A stretch of 63,940 bases of DNA, filler included, from Klebsormidium nitens (taxonomy: Eukaryota > Plantae > Klebsormidiophyceae), in the NCBI GenBank assembly GCA_000708835.1. It is 7 parts of 7 records of this genome, joined end to end, with 100 filler letters (N's around TTAATTAATTAA, not from the genome) between each part and the next. Parts side by side here need not be neighbours in the genome. Positions count along the whole stretch, not along the records: positions 44,905 to 51,069 come from DF237004.1; positions 51,170 to 57,737 come from DF238399.1; positions 57,838 to 62,316 come from DF238498.1; 4 more parts are not named here. One strand, 5' to 3'. The translations under genes and the position numbers were made by a program. Shown here in pieces: positions 32,545 to 62,418 of the stretch; position 1 is the first letter of the stretch, and each line of letters opens with the position of its first letter. The notes beneath the pieces were generated by a model. It was given only the letters and a program-made list of their open reading frames with translations, ran no database searches and was not told the DNA's origin.

Positions 32545-35500
32545 GCGATGCCTAGGTAAGGCCTAAGAAGCTCTGGTGCACGGATGCCTTAACTTTTGAT
32601 GCATTCGGAGATAGCCAGCCATTTGTATCAACGTAAGACATTGACTAGAAGCAGTCTATAACCACATCAGCGGCCCAAGCAATCAGAGGCTTCAATCTGC
32701 AACCAGCGACGTACCTTCCTGCCACTGTGACGAGGGTTGGCGTCTTTGAGGGCTGGCGTCTTTGAGAGCAGGATCCGCAGCGAGTGGCCACACTCGAACC
32801 CCTGATTGCAAGTAGCTGGGCCTTCTGCATTCAGTAGTCCACATCAGAGATCGGCATGACCGCAAGAGATCCATAGTTTTGCTCAATGACATACTACATA
32901 AATGCAGTCAACTTGCATGCAGGTGAACGGCCATTTCCGGACCGCGCTCCATAACCAGCAGATTTTGAATTGGTGATTGGTGGCAGAGCAACGATGAGTG
33001 GTCAAGAGAAGCGTTTGCAGACTGTTAGATGCTTAGTGCACACAATGCTTTTCGCGTTTGGATGGCCAGCGCATAAGCAGCTTTTTGTAAGAACTGGTGG
33101 CCTGCCAGAATACCTCAACTGCACGTGTATTTGATCATTTTAAAGATGTGTCACCACAGGTATTTGTTGAATGACACAAAGGGTGTCGAGAATCCCTTGT
33201 TCCCTCGGTAAGAATGTTGATGCACAGCAATCTTTCAACATTTCTGACAACGACGTGCTCACATGATGCCCACCTTGTGCTTGCAGGTATGCCAACTGGG
33301 CAGTAGCGGAAGAAGAGAAACATGCTAGGGTGTTAGGATCAGCGGTTCCGCACTAGCTATCTGTACATATGAAATGCAGGGCTCTCATCTCCAATCTGGC
33401 ATTGTGTCCTGACATCTCGCTGGTGTCTTGCTTCATTCTCGTCTTGTGGGCTTCTTGCTTCTTGAGAATGTCGGAATGTCAATTCAAAAGTTGCATGTGG
33501 CTTGGGCAAAGCAGCCCACCAGCAGATTGAGAGATCTAATCTTCTAACCAGACAATTACTTGACTGCATCATGCTATGAATGCTGCATGTTTTGAATGAA
33601 AGACCTGCTTATTTGAGCTCTACATGGGTCATCATGAGCTGCCTGCAGATTTGTCACCGGACTTTACCACCTGCCATCTTTTGCCAATGATCATGGATGC
33701 AGGCCCTGACGCCCTCCTCTTGGAGCTCTTGATTCTAGCTTCTCAGGATGGGCTCAAACTTGTAAAATGGCGCCTCCTTGTTTCTGCAAGAGGGATGCAT
33801 GTGAAAGGAAGTCCTGCTTTTTCCTACTTGCTGCATCATCTTGCTGCTAATATGCTTCCTGATCACCAGGCATTCTTGCAGCCTATGCACCGTCCGATAG
33901 CTTTCGAGCGTGCCGCAAAGCAGGGCATTCAAGTTTCGCACGTACGGCCAACTGGAATGCGAAACGAATACGACAGGGCGTGGCGATCCACCTGGGACTA
34001 GTGGAAGCTGGCATTCTNNNNNNNNNNNNNNNNNNNNNNNNNNNNNNNNNNNNNNNNNNNNTTAATTAATTAANNNNNNNNNNNNNNNNNNNNNNNNNNN
34101 NNNNNNNNNNNNNNNNNGCGGGATATACCGCCGCCGCTTGCGCCTTACGGACCGCCAGGTTCTTACCACGGGCCGACCGTTACATGGTCTGAGTGCACTA
34201 TTCAGACGTGGTCCCGGTCGATCCACTAATCATCCTCCACAGGAGATTGCAAGCTCTTCTGTCGCTACACCAAATGGACCCGCCGTTGATCAGCTGCATT
34301 GACACGAGTTTCCCATCAAACTCCCGGCCTTACTTGGTTACTCTATACGTAAACACAACCCGGCCATTGGTAGATTGGTTGTGAAGCCAAGAAGCCTGCC
34401 TTGTCGTATCGTCTCCTCTGCAGGGCTTAGAGCACACTTCCCGGCCCGGCCCTCTTCTGGCCTCCGCTTCTCCGGGGCCGCCCGCTTATGCTTGGTGACT
34501 GATCAACGGAAGCTTGCAACGTGGCCGACCTTCCTTGACCTGGGTGTTCTTTTTGCATTGGAACGTCGCAGCTTGGCACCAGCAGCCATCAAGGAGTAGC
34601 TCGGATGTTTCTGCTATAATCATGTCGCTGCAGGCAATCACGTTTCGCGCAGACTCGGTCAAGTGATCTTTCTTTCCGACATACGGCCGGGTATGTCTAG
34701 ATTTGGACCTGTCACTGATTGAAGGCACTGTATCTGATTTAGGCCAGAACAGACGGTTCGATTTCAAGCCATAGGTGAAAAGCGACAGTCCACCTAGTAG
34801 CCCAAGGGGCCTTGGCTTAGTAGACCTCACTCTGGATCATAGTCTTACTTATTTGTATCCTAGGATTTGAACTCTGCAACGCTAGTAACGCTCTTTGTTT
34901 TGATTGAACTTGTTTCATCTGACTGACGGCCGTGACATGCTGGTGCAGATGTACTTCCGCCTCGCCCGTCGCAGTGCAGTCCCCGGGCTGCAGTATGTGT
35001 CAAACTCTGTCACATCGCATGTGAGGGCTGATGGGTCTCAGGCTGCCTACTTACCCGCTAGTCATGAGTCCTTGTTTGTGCACAGTAATCACAGTGAGGG
35101 AGTGAAGGTTTTGCCTAAGATGCCCGAGCCTTCTTTGACGTTCTGCAGGCCCGGGGCAAATTCTTATGCGCACGCCCGTATCTCAGCATAAGCAAGCTTT
35201 CTATCGTTGAGTCGTGATTCCAATGTGTATTACCATGTCGTGGAAGCTGTGTCACGATGCAGTCGCTCAAAACTCGTAGACTTGATCGTAAGTGACGACA
35301 TCATGTACAATGTCACGCATCCACTGATAACTTTACTCTAGCTAGGTACTGTTTGGAGACACCTGAGGCTGATAGCGTCCATGCATGTTGAAAAGCACGC
35401 GCGCAGCAATGCCAATACCAAAGTTTTGTGATACTGTCCTAAGCAGATCTGCTAGACGGGCCTAGGAGGGTCTACAGCAGCACTCAGCTCGCAACAACAA

Positions 35501-43000: not shown

Positions 43001-44804
43001 GGAGCGTGATGCGGCTGCTGGCGGAACTGTACGCGCAGCCGGGGGTGGCCGCCGCAGGTGAGGGGCCGGGAGTTGGAGGATTTTTGGGTTCTTTTCCGTG
43101 GATCTTGCCCGACGCCTTCAGACCGGACGAAGCGCAACTGCCGACGGTCCCTAAGCAAACCCTCTTAGGGGGAATTCGGGGCACACGAGGGTCAACCTTT
43201 ACCTTCAAACACTCTGCAAATATGAAACAAATTCCGCCCAATAATCGTAGGCGGAGCTGTACGCTAAGCGGGGGGTGGCCGCCGCAGGTAATGCTCCGAT
43301 CGTATGACATCCATATCCAGCAGACTGAGCGTTTTTGACTGGTGTCAACGCTGGTAGCATATAGTATCCATATACAGCAGACTGAACTTCTTCGACTACT
43401 GTTAACGCTTCAATCATATGACATCTACACACAGCAGACTGAACTTTTGTGACTTTTGTTAACGTTCCTATCATCTGACACCCATAGACGGCAGAATGAA
43501 CTTTCTAGATTCGTGTTAACATCCTAGGAGATGCCGGACTGGAGTCAGGGGCTGTTAGGTTGTTTGAGTTGCCTGGGTTCATGGGGGGCATGTCTTAGTT
43601 GTTGCCGTACTTGTAGCGGCATAGACAGGGCGTAGACGATGCACGCCCGGTGCTGAAGTTTGAGCTGCTAACTGCTACAAACCAACGTGCAGAGCACGTA
43701 GTCATCAACGATGTCGGTAATCACGTCTTTTATGTCTCAAAAAAGGAATGCTTCGTCGTCCCAAGAGTAGAACGGGTCCTTTGAAGTTTCGCTCCTGAAG
43801 CTTCCCTTGCTTTTGTACAGGTGCACGCTCCGCCGTTAAGAAAGAAGAGCCCGACCCCGATACCGCCCAACTCCCCAGTCTGGAAAACCTCGTCCCTCGC
43901 CTCTGGCCCTTCATGCGGCACACAATCACCACCGTCCGATCAGCCGCAATAACGACGCTGGAACGCCTCCTGAACACGCACGGGGGGGTCGCATCGGCTG
44001 GCGGAAGCACCCCCCTCTGGGTGTCGGCCGTCCTCTCAGACGCACTGCGGCTGACCTTCCAAAACCTTCTGCTCGAAGTCAACGAACCGATCGTCGCGAG
44101 TTCGCGCAACGTTTGGGAGATTCTGCTCCACAAAGGGGGGGCGGAGAAAAGCGCACCGTTCCTGGGGGGCTGGTTTGCCCTGGCGGCGACCCCCTCGGGG
44201 ATGCGGCTGGACGCGAGTCTGCTCCTTTCGGGGGGGAGGTTAGAGGAGAAGGACCGGGGAGGGGGTGGAAAACAGACGGGGGGTGTCGAGCGATCTGGGC
44301 CGTTGGTTGGGGCGGAGGGGAGCCCATCGGCGGTGGAGATGCGCGCGCAGGGGGGCTGGGCTTTGGCGAGGCTGGGGCTAGCGCTTCAGAATGAGAACAT
44401 TGGGGGTTTCTGTGGGCACGTGACGGAGTTACTCCAAAGCCCCCGGGCGACGAGCCGCCAGCTGGCCGGTACGATCATGGCCGAGTGGTTTAAGGGTTTG
44501 GCAAACCCCGATGCTTCATTAGCAAACGGCGAAGTGAAGACCGAAAACGGTGGTGTCAAGACGGAGGGAGGAGCGAAAATGGAAGAGGTTTCCAGCGTGC
44601 TCGGTTCGCCGGCCGTGGCTGCGTTGAGGCAGAGAGCGCTGGAGCTTCTCCAGGCAAATGACGCCGGTTCCCCCACCCCGGGCTCTGCCGCGCCCTACGC
44701 CGACCTGAAGCCGATTTACACCAGGATGCGCGAGGAGGCGGCGGCCATGGCCGCGCACGCCCGCGCGGCCGGTGTGAAAACCCCGGCCTACAAGTTCGAC
44801 GCGC
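37045..44804 (+). CDS. BTAF1: TBP-associated factor BTAF1/MOT1 (SNF2 family), N-terminal HEAT region, 3'-partial; exons 37045-37123, 37543-37637, 38238-38458, 38837-38973, 39518-39582, 40713-40943, 41406-41514, 41951-42165, 42613-43057, 43821->44804
   Basis: Spliced translation gives RLDRLLTLLDTGGTPATRRNAAQQIG, LRSKKWDTRVAA, WEIRHGA, LDRFGDFVSDQTVAPIRET and LVPRLWPFMRH. All ten exons join in phase at GT-AG boundaries. Confidence 0.93.
40186..40800 (+). repeat. Four tandem copies (170/170/184-bp spacing) of the BTAF1 exon-6 acceptor and exon start
   Basis: CCG(C/T)AG|A..CC...GATGG.CCAC motif with acceptors at 40186, 40356, 40526 and 40710; only the last copy continues into the conserved ORF. 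Confidence 0.88.
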
Positions 44805-47800
44805 NNNNNNNNNNNNNNNNNNNNNNNNNNNNNNNNNNNNNNNNNNNNTTAATTAATTAANNNNNNNNNNNNNNNNNNNNNNNNNNNNNNNNNNNNNNNN
44901 NNNNGTCTCTGCTTCTACGGCTGCAGCGTCCTTTTCGGCCGGCTTGACATACCACTCCCGAAAATCTCGGGCATCCTAGTCTTGATAAATGCTTGATCGG
45001 ACGGCTTAGCATGGTTTGCCTTTGCCTTCCGACGCGGTGATCGGATGGTCGAGGAACGGCGATCAGTGAAGAAGCGCGCCCTGATCCCTGAGTCTATCCA
45101 TCCTATCCATCTATCCATGTCGATCGATCAGGAAGTCTCTTTTAGCTGCACAGAGAGCGGACGAGAGAGCACAGCACCAACTTTGGCATGAGCGGTCTTT
45201 CCAGCGCCAAACCGTACTAAGAAAGGTGTAAGAAAGTCCAAACTGCTTGATTGCATATACGATATATGCTTTAATATACGTACACGGTCAATGATGCTTC
45301 GTGTTCGCTTCCGTAGCAGTGAAGTCAATGCAGCTTCTGAACTGCATTTTCGTTCATGCAGCTTAATGAAGAAAAGTCCAACAAGCGTTCGAAACCTTCC
45401 AACATGGACGAGCATGCACGTCTTCATAGTTTACGAGTACTATGATGCATGAAAGGACGAAGGAAGTGAGCCCTCAAAATGGATTCATTGAATGATCTCA
45501 GGAAGTCGAGCTGTCGAGCCGCTAGTCATACATACAGCTCGGCGGATCGACTTGCATAACTTGCATGGCCGTTTTGCAGATCGCAGGCAAAACGCTATCT
45601 CGTGGCGTGTGTCTTTCAGCCGATGCAGAAGATTGATACTCCGACTCGGCTGCAATATCTCAATATGATAACAAAAGCTTTAGCATCTTCTCGAGCTCAA
45701 GCAGTGGGTTCCCTACTAGTCCACTGTTCGAATCAAGATTATGCGATAAGTACTTAGCTTATCTGGCTTGTCCATTCGATTATCAGACACGTTACTCTTC
45801 AAGCAATCTTGGGGCAATTTAAATCTCATGTGCTTGTTGTGTGCTTGTTATACGAATTGGGATAGAGGGGCGACAAGGTAATCACCGCACTACGTCTTGT
45901 CGGATGCCAGTTCCCGAGCGCAGATTTGCAACCTACAGTCTTGGCTGCAAAGTGTGGCATGCTAACTTCACCATCAGAAGTGTGGCCTCAAGATGCCGCT
46001 CTCGGTCCTTGGCACGTCCTTGGGCTGGCAAGACAGCTTGACTCACGTGAGTGTTGACTATGACATCGTGCGTTGGCATGAGCACCGACGTGCCTCTGTA
46101 CGTTCACGTGTTGACGTGCTGATACTTAGACCTGCATAAGTCAGGAGTACATCGCATGTACAGATTTAGCTCTCAGCAGAAGCTCCTCCCATATATACTG
46201 ATGTCAAGCCTAGAAGAATAAAGTTTTGCTCAAAAAAGAATGATTGATTCTTTGTGAATCAAAGAAGCCCGTAATCATGATGCATCTCAGGCAGCAATGC
46301 TTGGGAACATAGACATCCAACGAACAAGCGTCTCGTGAGAGACTTCAAATATCTATTATGAGCTCAAGTCGCTTGACGAGAAAGCCTCCTCGCTCAACGA
46401 GGGCCTACTAGAAATGAAGACTCGAAGACTTTCCCTGCTCCAAGAATTCCTCCCCATCTCAAAGTAGCTTGCAGCACTCCTTCTTGAGTGCTTTCACTTC
46501 GAACGGTTCAGAATAGTACTTTTTATCAGAGGCCGATCCTGCAAGCCTATCCGCGAGGCTCTCAACCGCACAAGGAGGCTGACAGATTGGCATGTCGTTC
46601 AAGTGTGCAGAAGGATCCTGAATCAATTGTGGCATTCTTACGGCAACGATCGTCTCAAGAGGGAAGAACCAAAGATCCATAAATGTTCAAGTGCATTGAT
46701 AGCAACGTAGTGTCACTTTTGCTCCGTGAAGATTTACTTCTTCTGCAGAGCATTCGGCGGGATCACTCGAAAAGCTTGTCCATCTCACAAGGAAAAAAGG
46801 GCTTATATCTTGGGGCCAGGATCCGGCCCGTTCAGTTCCAAGGTCCGACAGTTCTTGCAGGTCATCGGGGTTGGAACTCAATTGTGCAACTGAGCAACAT
46901 AAGCAGCGCTACCCGATTGTCTACGTGCATGCGCGTGCGCCCAGCAGGAAGCTGGAGCTCAGGAACAGCAATTGGAGCATTGACTGCAAATCACTGCCAG
47001 GATGAGAGGGCCAACGGGTTGTAATCGAGGACTTTGCGCGAAGAGTCCTATAAAATTCGCTGTATACGTACGCGCTTTCTAAGAATCTCAAGCTACTCAC
47101 CTTGTAGCCCCTTCGACAATATCAGTGTTCTTTAAATATCCTCAGGAGGAATTCTCGATGCTTGCAGTGTTCTTCGTATCAATACACACCGATACCTGCT
47201 TTTCGTAGCACTTATGTCGATAATTGCCTTGCTTCGCAATCAGCCTGGCTACTGATCTAGATCTGAGTTCCCCACGGCATCCAATCTCGTTTTCTGGTTT
47301 CAATTCCGGCGTCACAACATGCGAGAACGCGCTTGCAGGCACCTCTTGAAGATTCTCAATTCGTGGCAAGAGGCTTCCACTAGCATTGATTGTTCCTCCT
47401 CGGAGCGCTTCTTCTGTCTGAAACTTGAACCCTCGGAAGATAGTCTGTAGGGCGCTGTGAGATATCTGGCGCCTAATAATCTGAAGAGGAAAGAAAAGCG
47501 ACTTAAAAGTTTGAGCTGGTTGCTCACCATGTCCATCTGTCCATGTGGCTGGCTGCTGGGCATAGTTGATGATTTCAACATGCCCGTTCCTGAGACATCA
47601 TGCTCAGCACCAAGCAACTCTGAACAGTACGTGACTGGCTTTTCCATCTTGTGAACTGAAGGTCAAGAGGTGTCCTGGAACGTGGTTCCAAAGCAGATTC
47701 GAAGAGCTCATGCAGATTACATCGGCTTTTACGGAGCCCTTACGGAGCGCCTGAAGTCGCTGTTGAGGCCAGGCATCGGCCATTTGGTCTCGAAAAACGA

Positions 47801-50207: not shown

Positions 50208-51170
50208 TTTGCCTCCCAGCCGCCGGCCCTCCAAGAGCAGTCTTCTACTCAATCAACCACAGGACGTACTTTCTTGGATCAGATCTCACTTGCTTCTGAG
50301 GACCCACAGTTCAGAGCCCGATACGAACGGTCAGCTCAAAGGAGCGTTCCGCAAAAGAATCTACTCGAGGGGTATTCCAGGGGAACCACAAAAACTGCAG
50401 GTTGGCAAATGCCCCTCCCCCTCCGCTGTTTGCGCCTTGGGAAATTTAAGAAGTCGTCAGGTCTGTCCAGGATTGAGTCCAGAAACTATAAGTTTGAGGT
50501 CAGCAGGCAGCCATTTACAGCTTGCTGGCGCGCAGCATTGGAACTTGGCAGCTCCTTGCATGCAGGCGCGGCTGCCACCGTGCAACTTCCCAACCGGTAT
50601 GACGTCAGCAATTTGCCCGGGGATGAAACTTCCGAGCCTGTCATTCCCAGGGTTGCTTTTCCTCGGGTCCCAGCCCCGAGGCCCCGCAATCACCAGTCAA
50701 GGCTTAGGATGAGATGGGGACTATAATCGGGGCGCTCTCCTGGGTAGAGCGACCAGAACGTTCGAGCGCCGGTGGTAAGAGTTTGACTGGCCGAAAATAT
50801 GTCCGTTGACTCGCGAGGCTTCAGCGGCGACATGTGCCACCCGTAATTGGAAAGTAAGTAGCCGCTGTAGCGGCAACCCTGGTGGCTTCATCGACGGCTA
50901 TCAAGGCCCGATTGTGGAACTTCGGAACGACGGACGGTGGCAAAGCGGGGCGGCGGGAACTCCTTCCAAGAAAGGATCGTGAGCCTGAAGATGAATACAC
51001 CCGGGTCAATAAGTTTTGTACCTGAGGTTTTTCACGATTGCAAGTAGGATACCTTTTAGAGTGGCGCTTNNNNNNNNNNNNNNNNNNNNNNNNNNNNNNN
51101 NNNNNNNNNNNNNTTAATTAATTAANNNNNNNNNNNNNNNNNNNNNNNNNNNNNNNNNNNNNNNNNNNNA

Positions 51171-52024
51171 ATTGCTTCCACCGGCCAGCTCCTGGGGAAC
51201 GTGGAGGCGGCAGAGCCGATCGGCAGCAACATGTACGTGCGCAGGACCCTCGCAGGAGAGTTCGTGGTCACCAACCCTCACCTCATGGCCGACTTGGTCC
51301 GGCTGGGGCTCTGGAACGAGTCACTTAAGGAGCAGATAATGGCAAACAGAGGGTCGATCCAGGCTATCCCTGAGATCCCGGACGACCTCAAGGAGCTGTA
51401 CAAGACTGTCTGGGAGATCAAGCAGAAGGTCGTGATCGATTTCGCAGCCGATCGCGGGATCTTCATCGATCAGTCCCAGAGCTTGAATCTCTTCTTCAGC
51501 AAACCCACCCCTGCAAGCCTCTCCTCGGCGCTCGTCTACGGCCACAAACTGGGCCTCAAGACAGGTGAACACGCATGGAACGCAAACACGGAGGTTTCAG
51601 AGCTCTCCCCTAGGAGGAAATACTGGTGTTTCAAATTCTCAAATACTTTTGAAAGTTCCGCTCCATCTGCGCACGCGTGGGACGTGCAGTTGTTCACAAC
51701 ATCTTTTGTATTGTGTGAGGGATGTGCTGCGCGCATGGCGCGCAAACACGGAGGATTCGCAGCGCTCCCCTAGGAGGAAATATTGATGTTTCAAATTCTC
51801 AATTACTTTTGAAAGTTCCGCTCCATCTGCGCACGCGTGGGACGTCCTGCTAACTACAACGTTTTTGTATTGTGTCAGGGATGTACTATTTGAGAACCCT
51901 GCCATCCACTACACCGACGGCGGTCACAGTCCCGGTGAAGAGGGCAAGGAAGCAGGAGAAGGTTGAGAAACAAGACAAGGGTACCGTTTGTACAGATGAG
52001 GTCTGTGTTAGCTGCTCTGCTTAG
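51171..52024 (+). CDS. nrdA: Ribonucleotide reductase large subunit (class Ia), 5'-partial; exons <51171-51564 and 51879-52024
   Basis: [35 protein letters not shown] and GLKTG|MYYLRT restored by removing intron 51565-51878 (GTGAAC...GCTAAC...TGTCAG). C-terminal CVSC redox pair is present. Confidence 0.93.
51572..51885 (+). repeat. ~160-bp tandem duplication making up nearly the whole RNR intron
   Basis: CGCAAACACGGAGG at 51581 and 51741. Copy 1 ends in GTGTGAG|GGATGT (dead acceptor); copy 2 ends in GTGTCAG|GGATGT. Confidence 0.9.
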
Positions 52025-52106
52025 GGAGTTGCTTTTGATAAAAGTGTTTTCGTGCTCGGTGTGCAAAGCTGCTGGACAATTGCCACATTGTATGGGCTTG
52101 GTTCTG

Positions 52107-52727
52107 TCAACCTCTCCTACTATTGCGGATCAGGGCATAGATATCTCCAAGAGCCCGTACGATATCAAAGGCGTCCGGTGTTGGGTTGTAACGTACCCAC
52201 TGCGGCTCTATCGCTGAGTCAATGAATGACATCCGTTCGGCCTCGTCGACTGGATCTCTATCCTTGTGATCATTCTCGTCACACTCAAGAGCAATGTTAT
52301 ACTCGGGTAGATAGAGATCTATACGACGGTGTCCTACCCAATACTGTCGCAGCATCTTCTCACCTCGGAACACTTGCATGATGGTGTCAATTGTGTCCAT
52401 TTCATGGAAGTGTCTTTTGAACTTGAGGGACAGGGGTATTCCTAATTGTCGTGCGATGTCGATGCTATTGGGGAGCCTTGAATGGAAAACCAAGCCGGCC
52501 ACCCCTTCTTTTGTGATGTACCTCGTTGCCATGTCATTCTGGTTACCAAGAAGGCCAATGTTGCACCCTACGACAATGTAGTCCTTGGGGACATTTTGTG
52601 TCACCGCTTTTTGGTAGTTGGAGTAGCCCAGAAGGATTGCAACGTCGTTCGCCTTGAAGTATGGAACGCTGTCATGGACCACTTGTCGCACGTTCAAAGA
52701 GACAGCGGACTTTCCGTTGAGTGCCAT
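52107..52727 (-). CDS. BRO-N domain + C-terminal DUF559/Vsr-like PD-(D/E)xK nuclease domain
   Basis: PYFKANDVAILLGYSN..KAV (Bro-N); QY.VG.RRIDLYLPEYNIALECDENDH...VRYNP (nuclease fold common in large DNA viruses). Confidence 0.8.
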   Translation of the reverse strand: MALNGKSAVSLNVRQVVHDSVPYFKANDVAILLGYSNYQKAVTQNVPKDYIVVGCNIGLLGNQNDMATRYITKEGVAGLVFHSRLPNSIDIARQLGIPLSLKFKRHFHEMDTIDTIMQVFRGEKMLRQYWVGHRRIDLYLPEYNIALECDENDHKDRDPVDEAERMSFIDSAIEPQWVRYNPTPDAFDIVRALGDIYALIRNSRRG

Positions 52728-52877
52728 GATACTAATTTGATGGACGTATCTCCTTAAGGGATGAAGAGTGCCTCCACCTCTTGACTGCGATGGGGATGAG
52801 CACCCGCCAGAGGGTTCGCTACAAGTGAAGCGTTCGTGACTTAGGGCGACGCTTCACCAGGATATTGCATAAGAATC

Positions 52878-54927
52878 ATGGAGGAGAAGAGAGAGGCTAT
52901 CGTGCTGCTGCCATCACAGGAAAGTCACGTGAAAAAGCTCCTTAGCATCCTTCGGCGTCATGCATTTGCTCTTGACTTCTCCAGTTTAGGGTCCGGAAAG
53001 ACATTTTCGAGCAGTAAGATTGCCTTCAAGCTCGGAATGCCCCACGTGGTCGTGGTTTGCCCGGTATCCGTCCAACCAAAATGGCAGGAGATGAAGGACA
53101 GGTACGGGGTGCCAATCAAGCACAACTTGAGCTACTGTGGAGTCCGTTCCATGAAGGGCAAGCAGCCAAAGCACGGGCTTCTGACCCGAAGGGACTACAC
53201 TGTGGCCGTCCCTCAGCCTCGCGGGGAGCCTCGGCGCGTGGAGAAGACCGACTTTGTGATCACCGACGCCTTCAGGTCGCTCCTGGCAGAGGGCGTTCTC
53301 CTGATCGCGGACGAGATGCAGCACCTCAAGAACGTGTCCTCGCAGTTTGCCGCCTGCCAGGCACTGATCAAGGCGATTAAGGAGTCGTGCGAGGCCGGGG
53401 GCCGGTCGAGAGTGCTTATGCTGTCGGGGAGCCCGATCGACAAGCAGGAGCAAGCCGTCACCCTCTTCCGTTCCCTGAACGTCATGCACCATGCGGAGCT
53501 GTGCAAGTTCAATCCGGGGCTCAGGCAGATGGAGCTGCGTGGCATCTCGGACATCATCGAGTTCTGCCGGAGCGTCGACCCCGTTGTCACAGACCGTATC
53601 TTGGCAGGGAAGCGCTACTGGATGTGCTCAGAGTCCGTGATGCGGCCCATGTGCTACACCCTGTTCCAGGAAGTCGTCAAGCCGCACTTTTCCAGCGCGA
53701 TGCCGCCCCCCGTACCCGGCTGCACCCTGCACAAGACGAACGCTTTCTACCGGATTGACAACGAAGAAGACCGGAGAACCATGTCAGTGGGCCTGAGGGC
53801 CTTGGAGTGTGCCGTTCACTACAACCACAGGACGGGTGATGTNNNNNNNNNNNNNNNNNNNNNNNNNNNNNNNNNNNNNNNNNNNNNNNNNNNNNNNNNN
53901 NNNNNNNNNNNNNNNNNNNNNNNNNNNNNNNNNNNNNNNNNNNNNNNNNNNNNNNNNNNNNNNNNNNNNNNNNNNNNNNNNNNNNNNNNNNNNNNNNNNN
54001 NNNNNNNNNNNNNNNNNNNNNNNNNNNNNNNNNNNNNNNNNNNNNNNNNNNNNNNNNNNNNNNNNNNNNNNNNNNNNNNNNNNNNNNNNNNNNNNNNNNN
54101 NNNNNNNNNNNNNNNNNNNNNNNNNNNNNNNNNNNNNNNNNNNNNNNNNNNNNNNNNNNNNNNNNNNNNNNNNNNNNNNNNNNNNNNNNNNNNNNNNNNN
54201 NNNNNNNNNNNNNNNNNNNNNNNNNNNNNNNNNNNNNNNNNNNNNNNNNNNNNNNNNNNNNNNNNNNNNNNNNNNNNNNNNNNNNNNNNNNNNNNNNNNN
54301 NNNNNNNNNNNNNNNNNNNNNNNNNNNNNNNNNNNNNNNNNNNNNNNNNNNNNNNNNNNNNNNNNNNNNNNNNNNNNNNNNNNNNNNNNNNNNNNNNNNN
54401 NNNNNNNNNNNNNNNNNNNNNNNNNNNNNNNNNNNNNNNNNNNNNNNNNNNNNNNNNNNNNNNNNNNNNNNNNNNNNNNNNNNNNNNNNNNNNNNNNNNN
54501 NNNNNNNNNNNNNNNNNNNNNNNNNNNNNNNNNNNNNNNNNNNNNNNNNNNNNNNNNNNNNNNNNNNNNNNNNNNNNNNNNNNNNNNNNNNNNNNCAGTG
54601 CATATGATGTTCGCAAAGCACGCGCACGAGCTGCCAATCCTCGACGCGCTCTCCCGAAAGGGTGGCGTGATGCGGGAGACGACGCCCGAGCAGGTGGCTG
54701 CGGGCATCCTGTTTCCCGGCAGCTTTCCCAGCTGGGTGGAGGAGGATCTCGAGACTTCGCTGAAGAGGGCGGGTCTCGAGGGCCTGAAGTCTAACGCGAA
54801 GCGACGTAAGTGGGCGCGGCGCGTCATTGGAGCTGCAGTCATGGAGTGGGGATCACGGCCTGGGGGAGTTCTCTACAACCTGGCAATGCAGCGGTTCGCT
54901 GAGAGTGTGAGGAGCATAGAAGCATGA
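52878..54927 (+). CDS. Superfamily-2 helicase (NCLDV-like), interrupted by gap 53843-54595
   Basis: Walker A SLGSGKT, Walker B DEMQH, motif III LSGSP. The post-gap frame ELPILDALSRKG ends at 54927. Confidence 0.8.
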
Positions 54928-54951
54928 TTATTGGTAGAGATGTACGTATAC

Positions 54952-55036
54952 TCATCTACGCCCCTGCAACGTGGAGGCGGCAGAGCGAATCAGCAGCAAC
55001 CTCTACGTGCGCGAGGTTGTGGTTACGAAGCCATTC
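54952..55036 (+). pseudogene. Short degenerate RNR large-subunit remnant
   Basis: 54968-55011 matches 51198-51241 at 39/44 nt (NVEAAE.I.SN.YVR), with flanking deletions. Confidence 0.75.
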
Positions 55037-55235
55037 GGTGACCAAATGAACGTGACGTGTCTAGTAACACGTCGACTTTATTGATGTATACACGGTGATG
55101 CCACTTTCCTATCCCTCACCGTCTTCCTTTTCCTCGATATTCTCTGGCCGTCTGCGGCTCAAGAAAACATGCCTGGGCAAAGCGTTCGCAACACTTAGGG
55201 ACATGCGTATCCTACAAAAGGCAACTTTTTGAGAG

Positions 55236-56456
55236 ATGGCAAGCGCTGCTGTGGTTGGAGTCAAGCGCAAGCGTGGCCAGAACAGCGGTCAGTTCGCCTG
55301 CGATTTCGACGGCTGTGGCAAGACATTCAGTGGAAAAGGGTATCTCACACGCCATTTGAGCTCTCACTCGGACCAGAATGCGCCCCCGTCAAGCTACGAG
55401 GGTTGGAAGCAGCATTACAAGTACAAACATATTTACGGGCTCCCGGATGGCCGAGTCTGGAGTTGCAAACGAGGGCGCTTCTTGAAGGGTTCGATGATGA
55501 ACGATTACCTCAATCTAACGATTGACGGGAAGATCATCAAAAGACATCGCCTCAACTTTGAGATTGCAAATGGGCGCGCGATTCTGCCGGGTATGGAAAT
55601 CGACCATATCATCCCTTCGCCCACACCAAAGGACGGTGAAGAACGGCAGCCTCCAGACGACAGCTGGGCGAATTTGCAGGAGCTGGCAGGATTCGAGCAC
55701 CGGCGCAAGACACATGCGGACAATCCGGAGTCAGGCAAAAAGACTGGTGTCACCTTAGGCTGCCCGGTGATCGTGCATAACGTGACGAGCGGTAATGAGG
55801 ACCTGTACGCCTCAATTAAGGCTGCCGCATCATCTTTGGGGCTCGAAGCGTCAACGATTCAGAACCGTATCCGACAGGGGTCGACCAAGGCGTACGGTGG
55901 GCATGTGTTCCGCAGGTGTCCAAAGCATGTTGCGGAGCAAGACGACAGGCCCGGCGAGGACTGGAAGGATGCGAGGCTGTGTGGGAGGCTGATCAGAGGT
56001 GTGAGGGTCAGCAGCCTGGGCCGCGTTCAATTTCAAGACGGGAGGCGTACAGAGGGATGGATTCTAAACGGGCGGCGTAAGGTTAGCCTTCTGGTGGACG
56101 GGCGGAAAAAGAACGTCCACATCTATATCCTCATGGCCAACACCTATTTAGGCCCGCAGCCAAGTGACGAGCACACGGTCGACCACATCGATGGCAATTG
56201 TGATCACAACATGATCGGGAACCTGCGCTGGGCAACCAAGAGTGAGCAAGGGCGGAACATGAAGAATAACAGGGCCGTCCATCAGTACGATCTCCAGAGC
56301 AACCTTCTGCAAACGTATGGCACAGTCGTAGAGGCTGCAGAGGCAAACGATTTGTGGTGGGATCGGGTGTACTATGCCGCGAGGTCGGGCAGCACGGTGA
56401 CCGGTTTTCGCTGGGAATTTGTGCAGCAAGTTGCGGATCCTTGCCCAGAAGACTAG
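55236..56456 (+). CDS. C2H2 zinc finger + tandem (HNH + NUMOD1-like) homing-type endonuclease
   Basis: CDFDGCGKTFSGKGYLTRHLSSH; HRL...IDH...NL; YASIKAAASSLG; VSSLGRV...VDHIDGNCDHN..NLRWAT; VHQYDL...VVEAA. Confidence 0.85.
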   Translation: MASAAVVGVKRKRGQNSGQFACDFDGCGKTFSGKGYLTRHLSSHSDQNAPPSSYEGWKQHYKYKHIYGLPDGRVWSCKRGRFLKGSMMNDYLNLTIDGKIIKRHRLNFEIANGRAILPGMEIDHIIPSPTPKDGEERQPPDDSWANLQELAGFEHRRKTHADNPESGKKTGVTLGCPVIVHNVTSGNEDLYASIKAAASSLGLEASTIQNRIRQGSTKAYGGHVFRRCPKHVAEQDDRPGEDWKDARLCGRLIRGVRVSSLGRVQFQDGRRTEGWILNGRRKVSLLVDGRKKNVHIYILMANTYLGPQPSDEHTVDHIDGNCDHNMIGNLRWATKSEQGRNMKNNRAVHQYDLQSNLLQTYGTVVEAAEANDLWWDRVYYAARSGSTVTGFRWEFVQQVADPCPED

Positions 56457-56492
56457 GGAAGGAGAACGGTTGTTATTATTTGGTTCAACCTA

Positions 56493-56981
56493 CTAGTATA
56501 GACAATAAAATCCGGACATGCTTGGCAGGCACAGCATCCTGCGCGGTGTGAATAGCGTTGCATCCTTGTCCAGGAAGTTTGCGGTTGCTCGCTTCTTAGG
56601 GTCTGCCTTTTCGACCTTGAAAGCTTTTTTCACCTCTGCAACGCTCGTCTTGATGGCTGCTTTTGCCACCTGCTTTACAATCGGTTTCGCTTTTCTGGCT
56701 TCCCCTTCTGGGACAACCGGAGCGGCAGGCAGAGAGCTCCGTTCTTTTGGTGGCTTGCGTGTGTCTGGCTCTGTTGTCAATGGCCGCACTTCATCACCGG
56801 GCTCTTGATCGTCTTCGCCATCGTCCTCTCCATCATCTGCATCATCGTAATCGTCGTCCATGTCATCTGCATCTTGGAAAGCTTCTCGCCTGTGTGCCGT
56901 ACAGAGGAGAAGCATGCAGAACGAAAGCAGGCCGATTAGTACCAACCACTGCGTGTCCATGACATGATCACAGAAATTCAT
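56493..56981 (-). CDS. Small N-terminally anchored membrane protein with an acidic tract (giant-virus-type hypothetical)
   Basis: Hydrophobic WLVLIGLLSFCMLLLC followed by REAF and a D/E-rich run. Start overlaps the stop of the upstream ORF. Confidence 0.55.
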   Translation of the reverse strand: MNFCDHVMDTQWLVLIGLLSFCMLLLCTAHRREAFQDADDMDDDYDDADDGEDDGEDDQEPGDEVRPLTTEPDTRKPPKERSSLPAAPVVPEGEARKAKPIVKQVAKAAIKTSVAEVKKAFKVEKADPKKRATANFLDKDATLFTPRRMLCLPSMSGFYCLY

Positions 56982-57481
56982 TGCGCATACGCATTCTTGT
57001 GTGTGATTGCCAGTACCATCATGATCTTGTCATAGCTTGAATTGATAGACCCATCTTCAGCTTGGAAATCGCTCTGCGTGACCATGTCACCATCATATCG
57101 TTTGAATCGGATGCGCAGATTGTTGAGACGTGCTAGCAGTGGGTCAAACACTGTTTCTCCAGTGATGCAATCCCCACTGAGTGCATTGAGCTGGAGATAG
57201 TCCGTGTTGCTGTACATGCATACAGCAAATGCATTTGATTCGCCATCTCCGAAGCATTGCACGATGCGATCCAGCGGGTCAATGCTGATGATAATGTAAT
57301 CTTCGGATAACATCTTGGCCACTTGCATCTGCACAAGCCTGACTGCCGATACCTGTTGGAATGGAGTCGAAGCATTTGCAAGCGAGACATTGAAGTCGAA
57401 TGGAGAGGAGTCAGAGGGGGCACGCTTGCGGTTGTCAATCAGAACGTATGTACAAATAGAATTTGCCTGCGGGTCCCGCAT
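56978..57481 (-). CDS. Putative NCLDV penton/minor capsid (single jelly-roll-like) protein
   Basis: Pattern IDNRKR...PFDFNV.L...VSAVRL...YIIISID...AFAV...FDPLLARLNNLRIRFKRYDG resembles IDSRDR-type NCLDV penton-like families; recognised by eye only. Confidence 0.6.
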   Translation of the reverse strand: MRDPQANSICTYVLIDNRKRAPSDSSPFDFNVSLANASTPFQQVSAVRLVQMQVAKMLSEDYIIISIDPLDRIVQCFGDGESNAFAVCMYSNTDYLQLNALSGDCITGETVFDPLLARLNNLRIRFKRYDGDMVTQSDFQAEDGSINSSYDKIMMVLAITHKNAYAQ

Positions 57482-57516
57482 GGGTTTCTGTATGTATGTG
57501 TGACAATTGTTTGCTC

Positions 57517-57735
57517 CTAACCCAACAGAGAGGCAGCTACAAATTGCTCAAAGGCCGTCTGACCAGTCCGCAGCGAACGAGTAATTGTCCCCCTGCCCCC
57601 ACAGCGGACGGGGCAGCCCGCCTCCATGAAGTTGTCCTTGTGGGTGACGGTATAGCAGACCGAGCAGGCTGCATGCGCGCAGCTGGTGCTGAGGCTCGAC
57701 AGCTGGTCCAGCTCCTCTGCACCGCAGAGATGGCA
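57517..57735 (-). CDS. RING-finger protein, 5'-partial (absent from the ORF track)
   Basis: Manual translation: CHLC-x14-CAHAACSVC-x12-CPVRC...LLG*, a C3HC4-like spacing. Confidence 0.55.
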   Translation of the reverse strand, partial: CHLCGAEELDQLSSLSTSCAHAACSVCYTVTHKDNFMEAGCPVRCGGRGTITRSLRTGQTAFEQFVAASLLG

Positions 57736-57839
57736 CGNNNNNNNNNNNNNNNNNNNNNNNNNNNNNNNNNNNNNNNNNNNNTTAATTAATTAANNNNNNN
57801 NNNNNNNNNNNNNNNNNNNNNNNNNNNNNNNNNNNNNAC

Positions 57840-57949
57840 TGTGACGGTACGGAGGTCCGAGTGCTCTACCGTCGAGCTACGACCCAAAGTGTATCACCTT
57901 TTTGGGTCGTAGCTCGACGGTAGAGCACTCGGACCTCCGTACCGTTACA
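57840..57949. repeat. 110-bp fold-back: 49-bp arms (1 mismatch) and a 12-nt loop
   Basis: TGTGACGGTACGGAGG...GACCCAAA / TTTGGGTC...CCGTACCGTTACA. Confidence 0.9.
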
Positions 57950-59806
57950 ATCATGATCTCCCGGGACATCATCTTTGACGAGGGCTAATGGGACAACGGG
58001 ATTGTTGAGCTGAGCTCCGAACACCGCGCCTGCGCCCCCGCACACGTGCACGCGCCGACGAAGGACCGCTTCTGCGTTGCACGCACGATTTCCAAAACCG
58101 ATCAAAGTGGGCAAGTTTTGGAGACGGTGCGAGAGAGCAGAGCAGAGCGGGAAGAGATTGCGGAGGACATACGGATGCCAACACCGGCTGCTCAGAGGTA
58201 TCCGGCGCGTGAGAGACGCACGCCAGGGAAGTGGTACCGCGCCAACTTGGCGGCGGATACGAAAGCGGGGGAGCACCTCAAAGGAACGGGAGAGCACTGT
58301 CAAAAACCGCAGAGTTACAGGAAGCCGTAGGGGAGAAGGGAGTGACCTCGGGCGGAAGTCCATGGCCGAGGAGATGCGTTCCCTACTGGAAAAGGGAACG
58401 TGGAAAGTCGTCCAAAAAACTTGAGGGGGTCAAGCCGGTTCCCATGAAGTGGGTTTACAAGATCAAGCGGGACGCGCTCACGGAAACGTGATGCGGTACA
58501 AGTCCCGGCTGGTGGCGAAGGGCTACGTGCAGAAGCAGAGGATTGACTTCGACGAGGTCACGCCCCGGTGAGCACACACGACGTTGCATGTTCTGCTGGT
58601 GGTGGTTGCGAAGCACGACTTTGAGCTGCATCAGCTGGACGTCAAGACGGCATTCCTTAACGGGGAGGGGACGGGGAGCTGGAGGAGGAAAATTACATAC
58701 AGCAGCCGCAGGGATACGAGCAATGTGGGCCGGAGATGGTCTGCCACCTCAAGCGCACCTTGTACAAGCTGCGCCAGGGCCGCGTGCGTGGCACATGCGC
58801 CTGAAGGAGGAGCTCGTGGCGTTCATGGCGCACGCAGCGCTTTTCACGAGGATTGTAGCCGGGGAGCAGGTCTACCTCGTGGTGTTAGTGAACGACATCC
58901 TCGTGGCGGCTCGTGGAGCGGAGCGAATTGCGAAGGTGAAGGCGCACTTGGCAGAGAAGTTCGACATGCGCGATCGGGGGGCGGCGACGTACTCCCTCGG
59001 AATGGAGCTGACATGCGACAGGAAGGCGCGCATGCACCCAGAAGCTGACGTAGAAGAGGCTGACGGGAGAGCTATCGGACGTTACGGACAAGCGGAAGCG
59101 CGGGCGGGGGGACAAGTTAACGAAGGAGGGTGAGGGGCTCGACACAAAGCGGTTTCCATACAACGAGTGTGTGAAGCCTGCTGTATTTGAGTGTACGCAC
59201 GAGGCCCGACATCGCACAGTCGGTGGGCGCGCTTGCGCACTACATGGCGGGGCCGACGAAGGCGCACTGGCGGGCGGCGCTTGAAGTTGTGCGCTCCTTG
59301 GCAGAGATGGCAGAGGACGTGGTGACCTTTGGGGGGGAGCGAGGAGAATCTCGTCGGTTATTGTGACAAGGATTGCGTGGGTGACGTGGACGCAAAGCCA
59401 CAACGGGATACGTCTTCGTGATTTACGAGGGGGCGGTGAGCTGGCCGAGCAGGCTGCAGCCGTCGGTGGCAGCCGTGACATGGAAACGGAGTAGTACATG
59501 AGCGCAGCGCAAGCAGTAAAGGAGGCGTTGTAGTTTCGCAAGCTCGGGGGAGATCTCGAGTTGGACCTCGGGACGGTCCAGATCTATTGCGACAATCAAG
59601 GGGCAATTCGGCTCCTGAAGCATCTTATCGCATTGCAGCGATCGAAGCACAATGACGTGATTCATCAGTTTGCACGGGAGCGCATGGCACGCAAGGAGGT
59701 CGCGTTCGCGTACTGCAAGACGGAGGACATGAAGGCGGACAACATGATTGAGGCGCTGGCACCGGGGAAGTTCGAGGAGTGCAAGAGCGAGATATCAATC
59801 GCATAG
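57950..59806 (+). mobile_element. Decayed Ty1/copia pol (integrase tail, RT, RNase H)
   Basis: ISRDIIFDE; EEMRSL..GTW; KWVYKIK; HQLDVKTAFLNG; YCDNQGAI...RSKH; many stops and frameshifts. Confidence 0.9.
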
Positions 59807-59823
59807 CCATAGTGTGTGGGGGG

Positions 59824-59956
59824 TGTTGAGATACGGGCATTTAGGGACCGAATACCTGGGTGATTCTGGAGTTTGAGACACACGACGTCGACGGTGCTTC
59901 GACAGTAACTAGTAGTTACAATTACACAGTTAAATGCGCGCGGGTTACAATCCAAC
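59824..59956 (+). mobile_element. Probable 3' LTR start of the plus-strand copia element
   Basis: G-run PPT immediately before TGTTGAG at 59824; right end uncertain. Confidence 0.45.
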
Positions 59957-60082
59957 CCGAATGACTTGGCGATTACCGTTAATTGTGTAGGCTCGATAAT
60001 AGCCGTCGATATACGGTAAAAAGTGAAACTTCCGGACTTACTAGGTGACAGTTTACTGAACTCCTACTAGGCTAGACTAAAC

Positions 60083-60698
60083 TGTTGAAATCATACACTC
60101 ATGCTTGGAACCAACGAGGGATTAACCACCCTTACACACAAGCGCCTTCACAAAAGGAGCGCCCTAACTCTCACCAAGCATCTCTCAGTATATGTTTTAT
60201 CACATGACAATGGTTCAAGTCAAGTTCAATCCCGTAGCTAGGTCTACTCCAACCAAATCTACCATAATCCTTAGATACGTGGATACTATAATCGACGGCC
60301 TCGCTTCACTCACTCCAACCACCTATTATCGAACGGTCCACACAAATCCGGTTCTTAATCTCTTGCATCTACCTTTTCCAGGTTCCTAATCTGCCAACTA
60401 CTTGGGCTATTTGGGCTTGATCTGCCAAGCGCACAATCCCTTCCATCTTAATCCATCAAGCACTCAACTTCTTTTACCTTAATCTGCCAAGCAATCGGCT
60501 CCTCTTATCTTAATCTATCAAGCACTCAATCCTTTTCAACTTAATCTGCAAAGCCTTCTTCCTTAATTCCCCAAGTCTTCAACTTCTTACATCTTAATCC
60601 GTCAAGCCCTCATTCTCTTTCATCTTAAACTTACAAGTACTTGTTCTCTTTGTCGTTAATGTCCACAATTTGGCCGTCAACCAACCTTAATTTTAACA
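60083..60698 (-). mobile_element. 3' LTR (~616 bp) of the minus-strand copia element
   Basis: TGTT...AACA termini; PPT-like CGTGGGAG abuts 60698 on the minus strand; internal TTAATCTGCCAAGC-like repeats. Confidence 0.6.
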
Positions 60699-60754
60699 CT
60701 CCCACGCGGAGAAATTGTCCCACTCAATCTTAGCCACTTCTACCCGCTCGCTTC

Positions 60755-62316
60755 TTAGCCTTTGGTGTTGTCCATCCCGTCTCGCCCTTCCAAAATTCTT
60801 CCCGGTAGCACACGTGCCCACTCCGGATATCGCTTGCCGCCCGTCTCTGGCGACATCACCTTTCCGCTCTCATCCTTGTCCAACTTCCGGTTGAACCGTG
60901 CTCCCACGCCTTCCGCTGCGCTTGCTCCCACGGCTTCCACTGCCGCTCCCACGGCTCCCATTGCGCCGTGCTTCTCCGTCTTCTTCTCCGTTGGGGACTC
61001 CGTTTCCCCGACGCTCACATCCACCGGTTGGATCTCCTTCACCCCGTCGTCCGATTCGTCGTCCGACTCAGGGTCAACCTCAATGACCTTGACCGGCCTC
61101 ACCTCCGCTTGCTTCTTTTCCACTCTCACTTCCGGCTTTGGTGCCACCTCCCCGAACCGACGCTCCGTTTTGACCGGCCCCTTGACCGCCAAGAACGCTC
61201 TCGCCTTCTTAACCGTTGCAATCTCCCACAATCCACCGCGTTGCACCGCCTCCATGCTCACCACACCTCCCATCTCAAATCGGGCAATCCCCCTTTCAAA
61301 GGAGATCCTTGCGCCCGCGTCCGTTGCTCGCCGCATTGCGAACAAGTTTGCTCTCGCTCCCGGAACGTGCCAAACCTCGTTCAAGGTCACCTTGCCCGCT
61401 CCGTTTGGCGTCTCACACTCCAAGATCACTTTCCCAATCCCCACCGCCGTCAAGGCTTCTCCTCCAAGCCCCTCAATCTTCTCCGCACGCGCAAGCCGCT
61501 CGTAGCTTGCAAAGTGCCTCTTATCCGGCGTAATGTGTTGAGTGCTTCCCGAGTCAACGAGCCACACATCTGCCGGCACCCGCGCCTCTTTGCGCCATGC
61601 CGTAAACGCCACAGCGGCAAACTCCTTCCGGTCCGGGCGGTCCTCGCCGCCGCTCTTTGCACCACCCCGGGGCTTTCTACACACCGAGCTTATGTGGCCC
61701 CTCTCTCCACAATTGAAGCACTCCGCGTTCCGCTTCCGGCAATGAGCCCGGACGTGGCCCTTCTCTCCGCAAGCATAGCACGTCCTCGCGTCGGACCCCG
61801 CTTCACGCCTTACCCCTCCGTTGTAACCGCCCCGCTCACTTGACCCCTTGATAACGGTCTCATACCGTTCCCGCTTGGCAACAAATGCCTTCCCCATACT
61901 TTTCTCCTCCTTCTCCTCCGGAGCTCCTAGCTCCCCGTCCAACTTCAACTTTTGCTCTTTTGCATGAGCTTAGGCTGAATTGTGTCCAACGTCAACTCCT
62001 CCTCACTCAACTCTAGGACCTCCACTAGAGTTGCATACTCCTTCGGCAAACCATTCAAGGCATGGATTGCCAACTCTACCTCGGAAACGGTTTGACCCGC
62101 TGTCTCCAAATCCACCTTAATCTCGCGGAACTCTCCCACATACTCCGCAATGCTCTTCTCCCGGGTCAACGTCAAGCTTGTCAATTTCTTTCTAAGTTGG
62201 ACACCCTTGCGTTGCTTGTCTTCTCAAAGTTCTCCTCAAGCTTCTTCCAAGCTTTGGCAGCCGTGGACTCCCCAATGAACAACTTTACATAGGCATCTTG
62301 AGTGTGGAGGATCATC
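60755..62316 (-). mobile_element. Internally deleted Ty1/copia element: gag, two CCHC knuckles and protease, with no integrase core or RT
   Basis: ALNGLPKEY; CYACGEKGHVRAHC; CFNCGERGHISSVC; WLVDSGSTQH; frameshift near 61945. Confidence 0.88.
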
Positions 62317-62418
62317 NNNNNNNNNNNNNNNNNNNNNNNNNNNNNNNNNNNNNNNNNNNNTTAATTAATTAANNNNNNNNNNNNNNNNNNNNNNNNNNNN
62401 NNNNNNNNNNNNNNNNCC

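What the first reader, a model, noticed from the sequence alone, without database searches (positions are those of the whole stretch)
51170..57737. Giant-virus gene block carrying a host-type spliceosomal intron
Seven tightly packed genes (RNR large subunit, BRO-N nuclease, SF2 helicase, HNH endonuclease, membrane protein, penton-like protein, RING) are typical of Nucleocytoviricota; one pair overlaps by 4 bp. The RNR gene only reads GLKTG|MYYLRT after removing a 314-nt GT-AG intron with a CTAAC branch point. That fits a virus integrated in the algal nucleus long enough to gain an intron while keeping the C-terminal CVSC redox pair. Endogenized giant viruses with introns are known in green algae; which virus lineage this represents is open.
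Basis: partly seen in the sequence, partly recalled or inferred. Interest (0 to 1): 0.8.

Follow-up and report, generated by a model that had tools for sequence, protein, structure and literature searches.

The report
Endogenous giant virus with lineage-shared intron
A 6.6-kb piece of giant-virus DNA, likely integrated and methylated in a Klebsormidium-type alga, has a predicted spliceosomal intron in its ribonucleotide reductase gene at a site where some related viral copies are also interrupted and others are not, so the intron likely came with the virus lineage rather than recording this copy's time in the nucleus.

Summary
In detail: seven genes, a 4-bp overlap, and a 314-nt GT-AG insert (51565-51878) that is the only nearby pair restoring RNR with its C-terminal CxxC. 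The 167-aa ORF folds like a PBCV-1 capsid jelly roll (Z 11.7), so the block is nucleocytoviral. It is likely endogenous: several divergent copies share the genome, and a second sample reads like CG/CHG-methylated DNA. No host junction is visible, because both flanks are linker gaps. The 'intron as residence clock' reading is weakened. Four related RNRs from other assemblies break at the same codon with unrelated sequence (one a 115-nt intron), three run through, and free chloroviruses and active punuivirus carry such introns. The insert is two 155-nt copies of a dispersed repeat. The HNH gene is an optional 1.6-kb cassette that recodes its neighbour's end and carries an RNR relic. No RNA covers the block, so splicing is unshown. 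The RNR tree isolates an unnamed clade but cannot reject a plant sister (p 0.41). Endogenous giant viruses in Klebsormidium are published; this is a new member with unusual mobile-element detail.

The parts
51170..51564 (+). RNR large subunit, exon before the intron (5' part lost in the gap)
   Evidence: PF02867 E 1e-38; 75-96% to clade relatives, 56-68% to all other listed hits
51565..51878 (+). Predicted phase-1 GT-AG spliceosomal intron, 314 nt
   Evidence: Only frame-restoring GT/AG pair; CTAAC at 51850; no Rfam match at E<=1
51565..51719 (+). Intron unit 1 (155 nt, GT...GAG, branch motif degenerate)
   Evidence: 87% identical to unit 2
51724..51878 (+). Intron unit 2 (155 nt, GT...CAG, intact branch motif), separated from unit 1 by 4 nt that repeat the start of exon 2; member of a dispersed repeat
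   Evidence: summed depth 90-950 against about 3-20 on unique parts, and several different flanks
51879..52024 (+). RNR last exon with C-terminal CVSC
   Evidence: 47-59% to P0021/P0138 tails; CxxC kept in all 4 relatives with a tail
52107..52727 (-). Bro-N protein with a nuclease-like C-terminal domain; replaced by 1043 other letters in another copy
   Evidence: PF02498 E 8e-12, PvuRts1I-like weak; 17 IMG/VR loci at 30-46%, two GVMAGs; joint 52022-52833
52878..54927 (+). SF2 helicase-like gene, spanning a 753-N gap (53843-54595)
   Evidence: phrog_62 E 4e-9; Atlas ResIII/SNF2 clusters 0.94-0.98
54937..56511 (.). Optional HNH cassette (1575 nt), absent from another copy; sits in the last codons of the membrane gene and supplies it a recoded end
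   Evidence: joint 54936-56512 in runs X1 and X5; leftover codons and stop on the left, replacement end on the right
54968..55036 (+). Relic of an RNR gene inside the cassette, upstream of HNH
   Evidence: 45 nt at 89% to 51198-51242, E 7e-10; 12 of 17 residues to P0142
55236..56456 (+). C2H2 + NUMOD + HNH_3 endonuclease, 406 aa
56493..56981 (-). Small protein with one predicted N-terminal membrane helix and an acidic stretch
   Evidence: hydropathy 2.15 at residues 12-30; no family match
56978..57481 (-). Penton-like single jelly-roll protein, 167 aa
   Evidence: model pLDDT 70; 6ncl_a6 E 1.2e-5, Z 11.7 against next 6.4; top BFVD hits are giant-virus proteins
57517..57737 (-). RING-like zinc finger, 3' part (5' part lost in the gap)
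   Evidence: weak RING-family hits, E 0.04-0.08, below cut-off

Best explanation
The block is giant-virus (Nucleocytoviricota) DNA, likely one of several integrated and methylation-silenced copies in a Klebsormidium nitens-type genome, and the 314-nt insert in its RNR gene is a predicted host-spliced intron whose position was likely already in use in the virus lineage before this copy integrated. Shown: the viral fold and gene set, the splice signals, the same break point in 4 relatives and read-through in 3, the tandem repeat make-up, and the optional HNH cassette. Inferred mechanism: the virus was transcribed in the host nucleus, so the spliceosome could remove the insert and restore RNR with its C-terminal redox pair. 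The conserved AG/G context at this codon accepted introns. The intron's content turned over: here a repeat unit fills it and was then doubled together with the first bases of exon 2, which rebuilt a branch point and acceptor downstream and left the exon intact. The HNH cassette would be a free-standing homing element that moves between co-resident virus genomes and repairs the gene end it interrupts. Today the copy is probably silent.
For: Penton fold. RNR clade 100/99 on a long stem, apart from 8 sampled eukaryotes. Three further RNR copies labelled K. nitens at 96, 85 and 75%, and syntenic variant copies in the same run. Run X5: C>T 231 and G>A 150 dominate; differences per contig match the CHH count within 1 in 4 of 8 long contigs and are well below the total C count in all 8; 11 of 12 listed full-share places are CHH or the outer C of CCG. 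P0019, P0020, P0136 and P0137 break after the same Gly codon. P0137's tail holds exon 2 in the +1 frame (21 of 22 residues compatible; shuffle maximum 15 in 1000), implying a 115-nt intron. The three tails tested show no likeness to this intron. P0022, P0138 and P0023 read through, as do 80 of 80 IMG/VR RNR loci. Run X6 (another organism label) holds contigs crossing the intron 3' end into exon 2. Precedent: chlorovirus pdg and DNA polymerase introns, with plus and minus isolates (PMC7019647); 61 intron genes in active punuivirus (10.64898/2026.10.09.758095).
Against: No spliced RNA was seen. No virus-host junction was seen. I never saw the relatives' DNA, so they may all be endogenous copies and their intron state is read from proteins only. 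Unrelated intron sequences and a repeat-derived body fit independent gains in the nucleus equally well. The AU test does not reject the clade as sister to the one plant RNR (p 0.41). The library type of X5 is inferred, 4 of 8 contigs do not match the CHH count closely, and the 80% cut-off hides fully converted contigs. Summed contig depth is not a copy number.
Confidence: 0.58

Rival explanations
1. One reading: the virus integrated without the intron, and host repeats created it afterwards. The shared position reflects either one old integration inherited and duplicated in Klebsormidium, or repeated gains at a proto-splice site.
For: The intron body is a dispersed repeat in this genome. Relatives' introns are unrelated in sequence. 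Intron-plus and intron-minus rows are interleaved on the tree: P0019 (+) groups with P0022/P0138 (-). 80 of 80 IMG/VR loci lack it.
Against: It needs several independent hits on one codon, or one integration older than 15-25% amino-acid divergence with ORFs kept open and gene content reshuffled as in replicating viruses (Bro-N swap, HNH presence or absence). The other six genes show no evident intron in their sequenced parts.
Confidence: 0.27
2. The insert is an inactivating repeat insertion in a dead viral gene and is never spliced; the GT-AG ends are inherited or coincidental.
For: No RNA contig laid on the block (X7, X12; not evidence of absence by the tool's own note). The block looks methylated. 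4 of 9 window-specific changes at otherwise invariant residues fit C>T or G>A at CG/CHG sites (ancestral codons inferred).
Against: Exact frame restoration, branch motif and intact exon 2. An independent 115-nt intron with splice-compatible ends at the same site in P0137.
Confidence: 0.1
3. The contig is from a free or persistently replicating virus in the culture and was joined to host pieces artificially.
For: Both flanks are linker gaps, and the rest of RNR is not in the window. ORFs are largely open.
Against: Several divergent genotypes in one sample at depths of 13-42; near-identical sequence in a second sample with a plant-type CG/CHG protection pattern. PMC5294986 argues the same for K. 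flaccidum/nitens from five DNA polymerase and six capsid genes.
Confidence: 0.05

Closest known systems
Endogenous NCLDV regions of Klebsormidium nitens (flaccidum) (PMC5294986; PMC12344493)
   Same: Virus-dominated short contigs, several divergent copies, few visible host junctions, methylated viral genes. The nearest RNR (96%) is a K. nitens gene model.
   Different: In the passages I read, neither paper describes this RNR intron, its plus/minus pattern, the penton or the HNH cassette. Whether this contig is among theirs was not checked.
Punuivirus, latent GEVE of Chlamydomonas reinhardtii (10.64898/2026.10.09.758095)
   Same: Integrated giant virus of a green alga with GT-AG introns (61 of 506 genes, mean 176 nt).
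   Different: Punuivirus is complete, transcribed, makes virions and resists 5mC. This is a 6.6-kb fragment in a streptophyte that looks methylated, with no expression seen.
Chlorovirus spliceosomal introns in pdg and DNA polymerase (PMC7019647)
   Same: Host-spliced intron in a DNA-metabolism gene, present in some isolates and absent in others at one position.
   Different: Chlorovirus introns are 81-101 nt and nearly invariant in sequence. Here the site is shared but the sequences are unrelated, and this one is a doubled repeat.
Introners, including those in integrated viral genes (PMC12130899, PMC12166617, PMC12768974)
   Same: Intron made of a repeated element; short direct repeats at the ends include splice-site bases.
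   Different: Other family members were not shown to be introns. No terminal inverted repeats found. Klebsormidium is not mentioned in the main text of the first two papers.
Free-standing HNH homing endonuclease mobE of phage T4 (PMC2790892)
   Same: Optional HNH gene near RNR genes that could move neighbouring introns in trans.
   Different: Eukaryotic virus. The cassette lies three genes from RNR, recodes a membrane gene's end and carries an RNR relic. No cleavage data.

Membership tests
Nucleocytoviricota | Single jelly-roll penton of the PBCV-1 type | tested here: met
   6ncl_a6 E 1.2e-5, TM 0.60; Z 11.7, rmsd 4.0 over 132 residues; all named hits in the BFVD top 19 are giant-virus proteins. 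The tool does not name the chain; its length and fold fit penton P1 (PMC6344570).
Nucleocytoviricota | Core markers (double jelly-roll capsid, PolB, A32 ATPase, VLTF3) | not testable with these tools
Nucleocytoviricota | RNR groups with viral, not host, RNR1 | tested here: inconclusive
   Own clade 100/99, outside the eukaryote group, deep nodes weak; sister to the single plant row not rejected, p 0.41; host RNR1 not available.
Algavirales / Phycodnaviridae | Marker phylogeny places it in the order | tested here: inconclusive
   No close IMG/VR contig (RNR at most 67%; penton and helicase none). PMC5294986 assigns K. flaccidum markers to Phycodnaviridae, untested for this contig.
Giant endogenous viral element | Sequence junction to host chromosome | tested here: inconclusive
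   Both ends are N-linker-N joins; no listed contig piece showed a junction.
Giant endogenous viral element | Host-type silencing methylation | tested here: met
   Inferred from run X5's CHH-restricted C>T/G>A pattern; library type not on record.
Giant endogenous viral element | Several divergent copies in one genome | tested here: met
   P0141, P0021, P0142; variant contigs in X1 and X2.
Giant endogenous viral element | Read depth equal to single-copy host DNA | not tested
U2-type spliceosomal intron | GT donor, branch motif, YAG acceptor, removal restores the protein | tested here: met
U2-type spliceosomal intron | Spliced transcript | tested here: inconclusive
   No RNA holder listed; 0 contigs laid from X7 and X12.
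Group I/II self-splicing intron | Match to catalytic intron models; stable fold | tested here: inconclusive
   0 Rfam matches at E<=1; unit 2 folds no better than shuffles, z -0.64. Unlikely.
Introner | Similar sequences form introns at several unrelated sites in a genome | tested here: inconclusive
   The unit recurs with different flanks, but those copies could not be read as genes.
Introner | Target-site duplication supplying a splice site | tested here: inconclusive
   CAGG at both ends of the whole insert and a 7-nt repeat around unit 2; plain tandem duplication explains them too.
Free-standing homing endonuclease | HNH domain and presence/absence between close genomes | tested here: met
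Free-standing homing endonuclease | Cuts the empty allele and spares its own | not testable with these tools
   Needs a cleavage assay.

The most novel reading that the evidence does not exclude
An undescribed, nucleus-transcribed giant-virus lineage of streptophyte algae carries its own spliceosomal introns at a fixed hot spot in RNR. The site is filled, emptied and refilled by introner-like repeats, and may be driven between co-resident genomes by a free-standing HNH that carries a relic of its RNR target, so the Klebsormidium inserts record a latent, intron-trading virus population rather than eroded fossils.
Probability: 0.2. Interest if true: 0.72.

Novelty: new member of a known kind. 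Interest (0 to 1): 0.42.

Why it matters
No giant virus of streptophytes, the lineage that includes land plants, is in culture to my recall, so these inserts are a main record of one. Introns in endogenous giant viruses were read as signs of decay and are now being re-read as viral features (10.64898/2026.10.09.758095). One codon with plus and minus alleles and unrelated intron bodies across about ten relatives makes that question testable at a single locus. The penton family and RNR clade also give markers for finding the live virus.

Tried and rejected
No DNA of close relatives was found: penton in viral contigs 0, 0 of 98 candidates; in metagenome contigs 0 of 144; clade-specific RNR pattern 0 in both; intron core 0 in viral contigs; helicase 0 of 1. 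No RNA holder listed; RNA-labelled runs X7 and X12 laid 0 contigs, which is no evidence on expression. Neither lay listed a joint skipping the intron (none; one search showed 15 of 25 joints). Rfam 0. Penton profile against PDB sequences 0. Atlas hits for HNH were below 0.8. CpG and CHG observed/expected in the block (0.89, 1.2) show no bulk depletion. The careful 46-row tree did not finish; one search is the quick tree. A reading with two introns and a 4-nt micro-exon was rejected because it shifts the frame. The window's host flanks were rejected as evidence of integration because the linker joins pieces with no gene continuity. Earlier-findings look-ups returned nothing. Paper searches listed no title on this intron; the library lacks most subscription papers.
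Full report
Observation. Family support: RNR barrel E 1e-38, Bro-N E 8e-12, HNH_3 E 1e-11 with C2H2 and NUMOD-like domains, and only weak RING hits. The helicase matches phrog_62 at E 4e-9 and SF2-type Atlas clusters. The membrane and penton-like ORFs overlap by 4 bp. The 314-nt insert 51565-51878 is the only GT/AG pair near the break that restores an open RNR frame, with CTAAC 28 nt before the acceptor; only 2 of 394 AGs in the block have that arrangement. The last exon ends in CVSC, as relatives end in CxxC. RNR and RING are cut by gaps, and the helicase spans a 753-N gap.

The flanks say nothing about integration. Six gaps in the window carry a 12-nt linker with stops in most frames, and two of them bound the block. 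The rest of RNR is nowhere in the window. I infer these are artificial joins of separate pieces.

It is a giant virus. The 167-aa ORF has 13 homologs at 60-89%. Its model (pLDDT 70) matches chain a6 of the PBCV-1 capsid (E 1.2e-5; Z 11.7, rmsd 4.0 over 132 residues, next row 6.4), and the leading BFVD hits are giant-virus proteins. The tool does not name the chain; a single jelly roll of that length fits penton P1 (PMC6344570, passages). The RNR exon and 10 relatives form one clade (100/99) on a long stem, outside the group of sampled eukaryotes (I used 88 of the fetched RNRs in the first tree and 45 in the second, which is a quick tree). Against this, an AU test does not reject the clade as sister to the single plant row (p 0.41). 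No IMG/VR contig is close (at most 67%), so the family is unplaced.

Host and endogenous state. The nearest RNR, 96% identical, is labelled Klebsormidium nitens, as are two more at 85% and 75%. I infer the window is from that species or a near relative. Run X1 holds this copy exactly (contigs with 0-1 differences, depth 13-42) plus variants: one has 1043 other letters in place of Bro-N, one lacks the HNH gene. Run X5, another sample with the same species label, shows C>T 231 and G>A 150 as its dominant changes. Differences per contig match the plus-strand CHH count within 1 in 4 of 8 long contigs (58/57, 26/27, 32/32, 20/20). The other four give 17, 34, 28 and 31 against CHH counts of 25-43, and all 8 are well below the total C count. 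Of 12 listed places where X5 reads C>T or G>A at near full share, 9 are CHH, 2 the outer C of CCG, and 1 CG; that last is also in X1, so it is probably a paralog difference. The chance that the other 11 all avoid CG and CWG is 0.005 if independent. This is what a cytosine-converted library gives on DNA methylated at CG and CHG. The library type is my inference, and the 80% cut-off hides fully converted contigs. It agrees with published work: multiple viral inserts in this genome (PMC5294986, passages and section 3.3) and methylated viral genes and GEVEs in K. nitens (PMC12344493 and its preprint, passages). Their supplements were not opened and may list this contig.

The intron site is shared, its content is not. 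Among the 10 relatives, four (P0019, P0020, P0136, P0137) leave the RNR frame after the same Gly codon. Three (P0022, P0138, P0023) read through to a CxxC end. Three are K. nitens gene models that cannot be scored: P0141 and P0142 depart or stop at that codon, and P0021 reads through. P0137's tail contains the last exon in the +1 frame (21 of 22 residues compatible, shuffle maximum 15 in 1000), which implies a 115-nt intron with splice-compatible ends. The tails of P0019, P0020 and P0137 show no likeness to this intron, while a positive control did match. All 80 IMG/VR RNR loci read through. Plus and minus rows are interleaved: P0019 groups with P0021, P0022 and P0138. In X6, a run with another organism label, contigs cross from the intron's 3' end into exon 2, and one contig follows exon 1 to the donor and then departs. 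I read all relatives from proteins or contig tables, never their DNA, and cannot say which are free viruses.

What the intron is made of. It is two 155-nt GT...AG units, 87% alike, separated by 4 nt that repeat the start of exon 2; only the second keeps the branch motif. Summed depth on the units is 90-950 against about 3-20 on unique parts, and contigs leave them into several different flanks, some ending in CTAAC...AG. So the unit is a dispersed repeat, though depth is not a copy number. It has no Rfam match and no unusual fold. An introner-like origin is possible but unshown (PMC12130899, PMC12166617, PMC12768974; passages).

The HNH cassette. A joint 54936-56512 in X1 and X5 shows a copy without 1575 nt. 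The cassette lies in the last codons of the membrane gene: leftover codons and a stop remain on its left, and it supplies a similar but recoded end on its right. Upstream of HNH it carries an RNR relic (45 nt, 89%, E 7e-10; 12 of 17 residues to P0142). This works like a free-standing homing endonuclease such as T4 mobE, which nicks an RNR gene and moves a neighbouring intron in trans (PMC2790892, abstract). Target and activity here are untested.

Mechanism and verdict. Most likely the virus was transcribed in the nucleus and tolerated a spliceosomal intron at this codon; the content turned over; this copy integrated and was silenced. An intron is no clock of residence: lytic chloroviruses carry plus/minus spliceosomal introns (PMC7019647, passages), and virion-producing punuivirus has 61 intron genes (10.64898/2026.10.09.758095, passages). 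I put endogenous giant virus at about 0.9 and the full explanation at 0.58. Post-integration gain stays at 0.27, an unspliced insertion at 0.10, a free virus at 0.05. No RNA covered the block, so splicing is predicted only. The kind of system is known; the site-shared, sequence-swapped intron and the recoding HNH cassette were not in the papers I read. Interest 0.42.

Noticed in passing
window 19591-19690, 34018-34117, 44805-44904, 51070-51169, 57738-57837, 62317-62416: Six identical 44N + 12-nt linker + 44N joins cut the window into seven pieces of 1.5-19.6 kb; likely artificial, so adjacency across them should not be trusted.
   Followed up: partly
P0019, P0020, P0136, P0137, P0138, P0023: These RNR relatives are only 305-366 aa and start mid-protein, three of them on contigs of 10-55 kb; P0019 starts right at the catalytic NLC motif (motif role recalled). 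Suggests further interruptions upstream in this lineage's RNR, even in alleles without the intron studied here.
   Followed up: no
P0021, P0022, P0138: These read-through alleles have Ser-Leu where 226 of 243 fetched RNRs have Gly then another residue; possibly a scar of intron loss or an escape from a nuclease.
   Followed up: no
window 55236-56456: Many patchy joints in run X1 point to several divergent HNH paralogs in the same genome.
   Followed up: no
window 56647-57378: An exact-match contig at depth 42, against 13-19 for its neighbours, suggests this stretch is present in more than one identical copy.
   Followed up: no
window 42403-44860: Host gene with HEAT repeats and DUF3535 (BTAF1/Mot1-like, name recalled), cut at a linker gap.
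   Followed up: no
window 57838-62316: Decayed LTR retrotransposon with zinc knuckle and Pol beta-barrel (Copia-type label recalled); CWG observed/expected 0.51, as expected from CHG methylation decay, unlike the viral block at 1.2.
   Followed up: partly
window 665-2134: KDZ transposase-like ORF, E 7e-4, below cut-off.
   Followed up: no
window 3846-4655, 13387-14616, 18075-18857: MYND-finger ORF and a single long LRR ORF; an ankyrin-like repeat ORF (by eye).
   Followed up: no
window 6135-6877 and 7532-8494: Two arrays of tandem coding-like repeats in long open frames.
   Followed up: no
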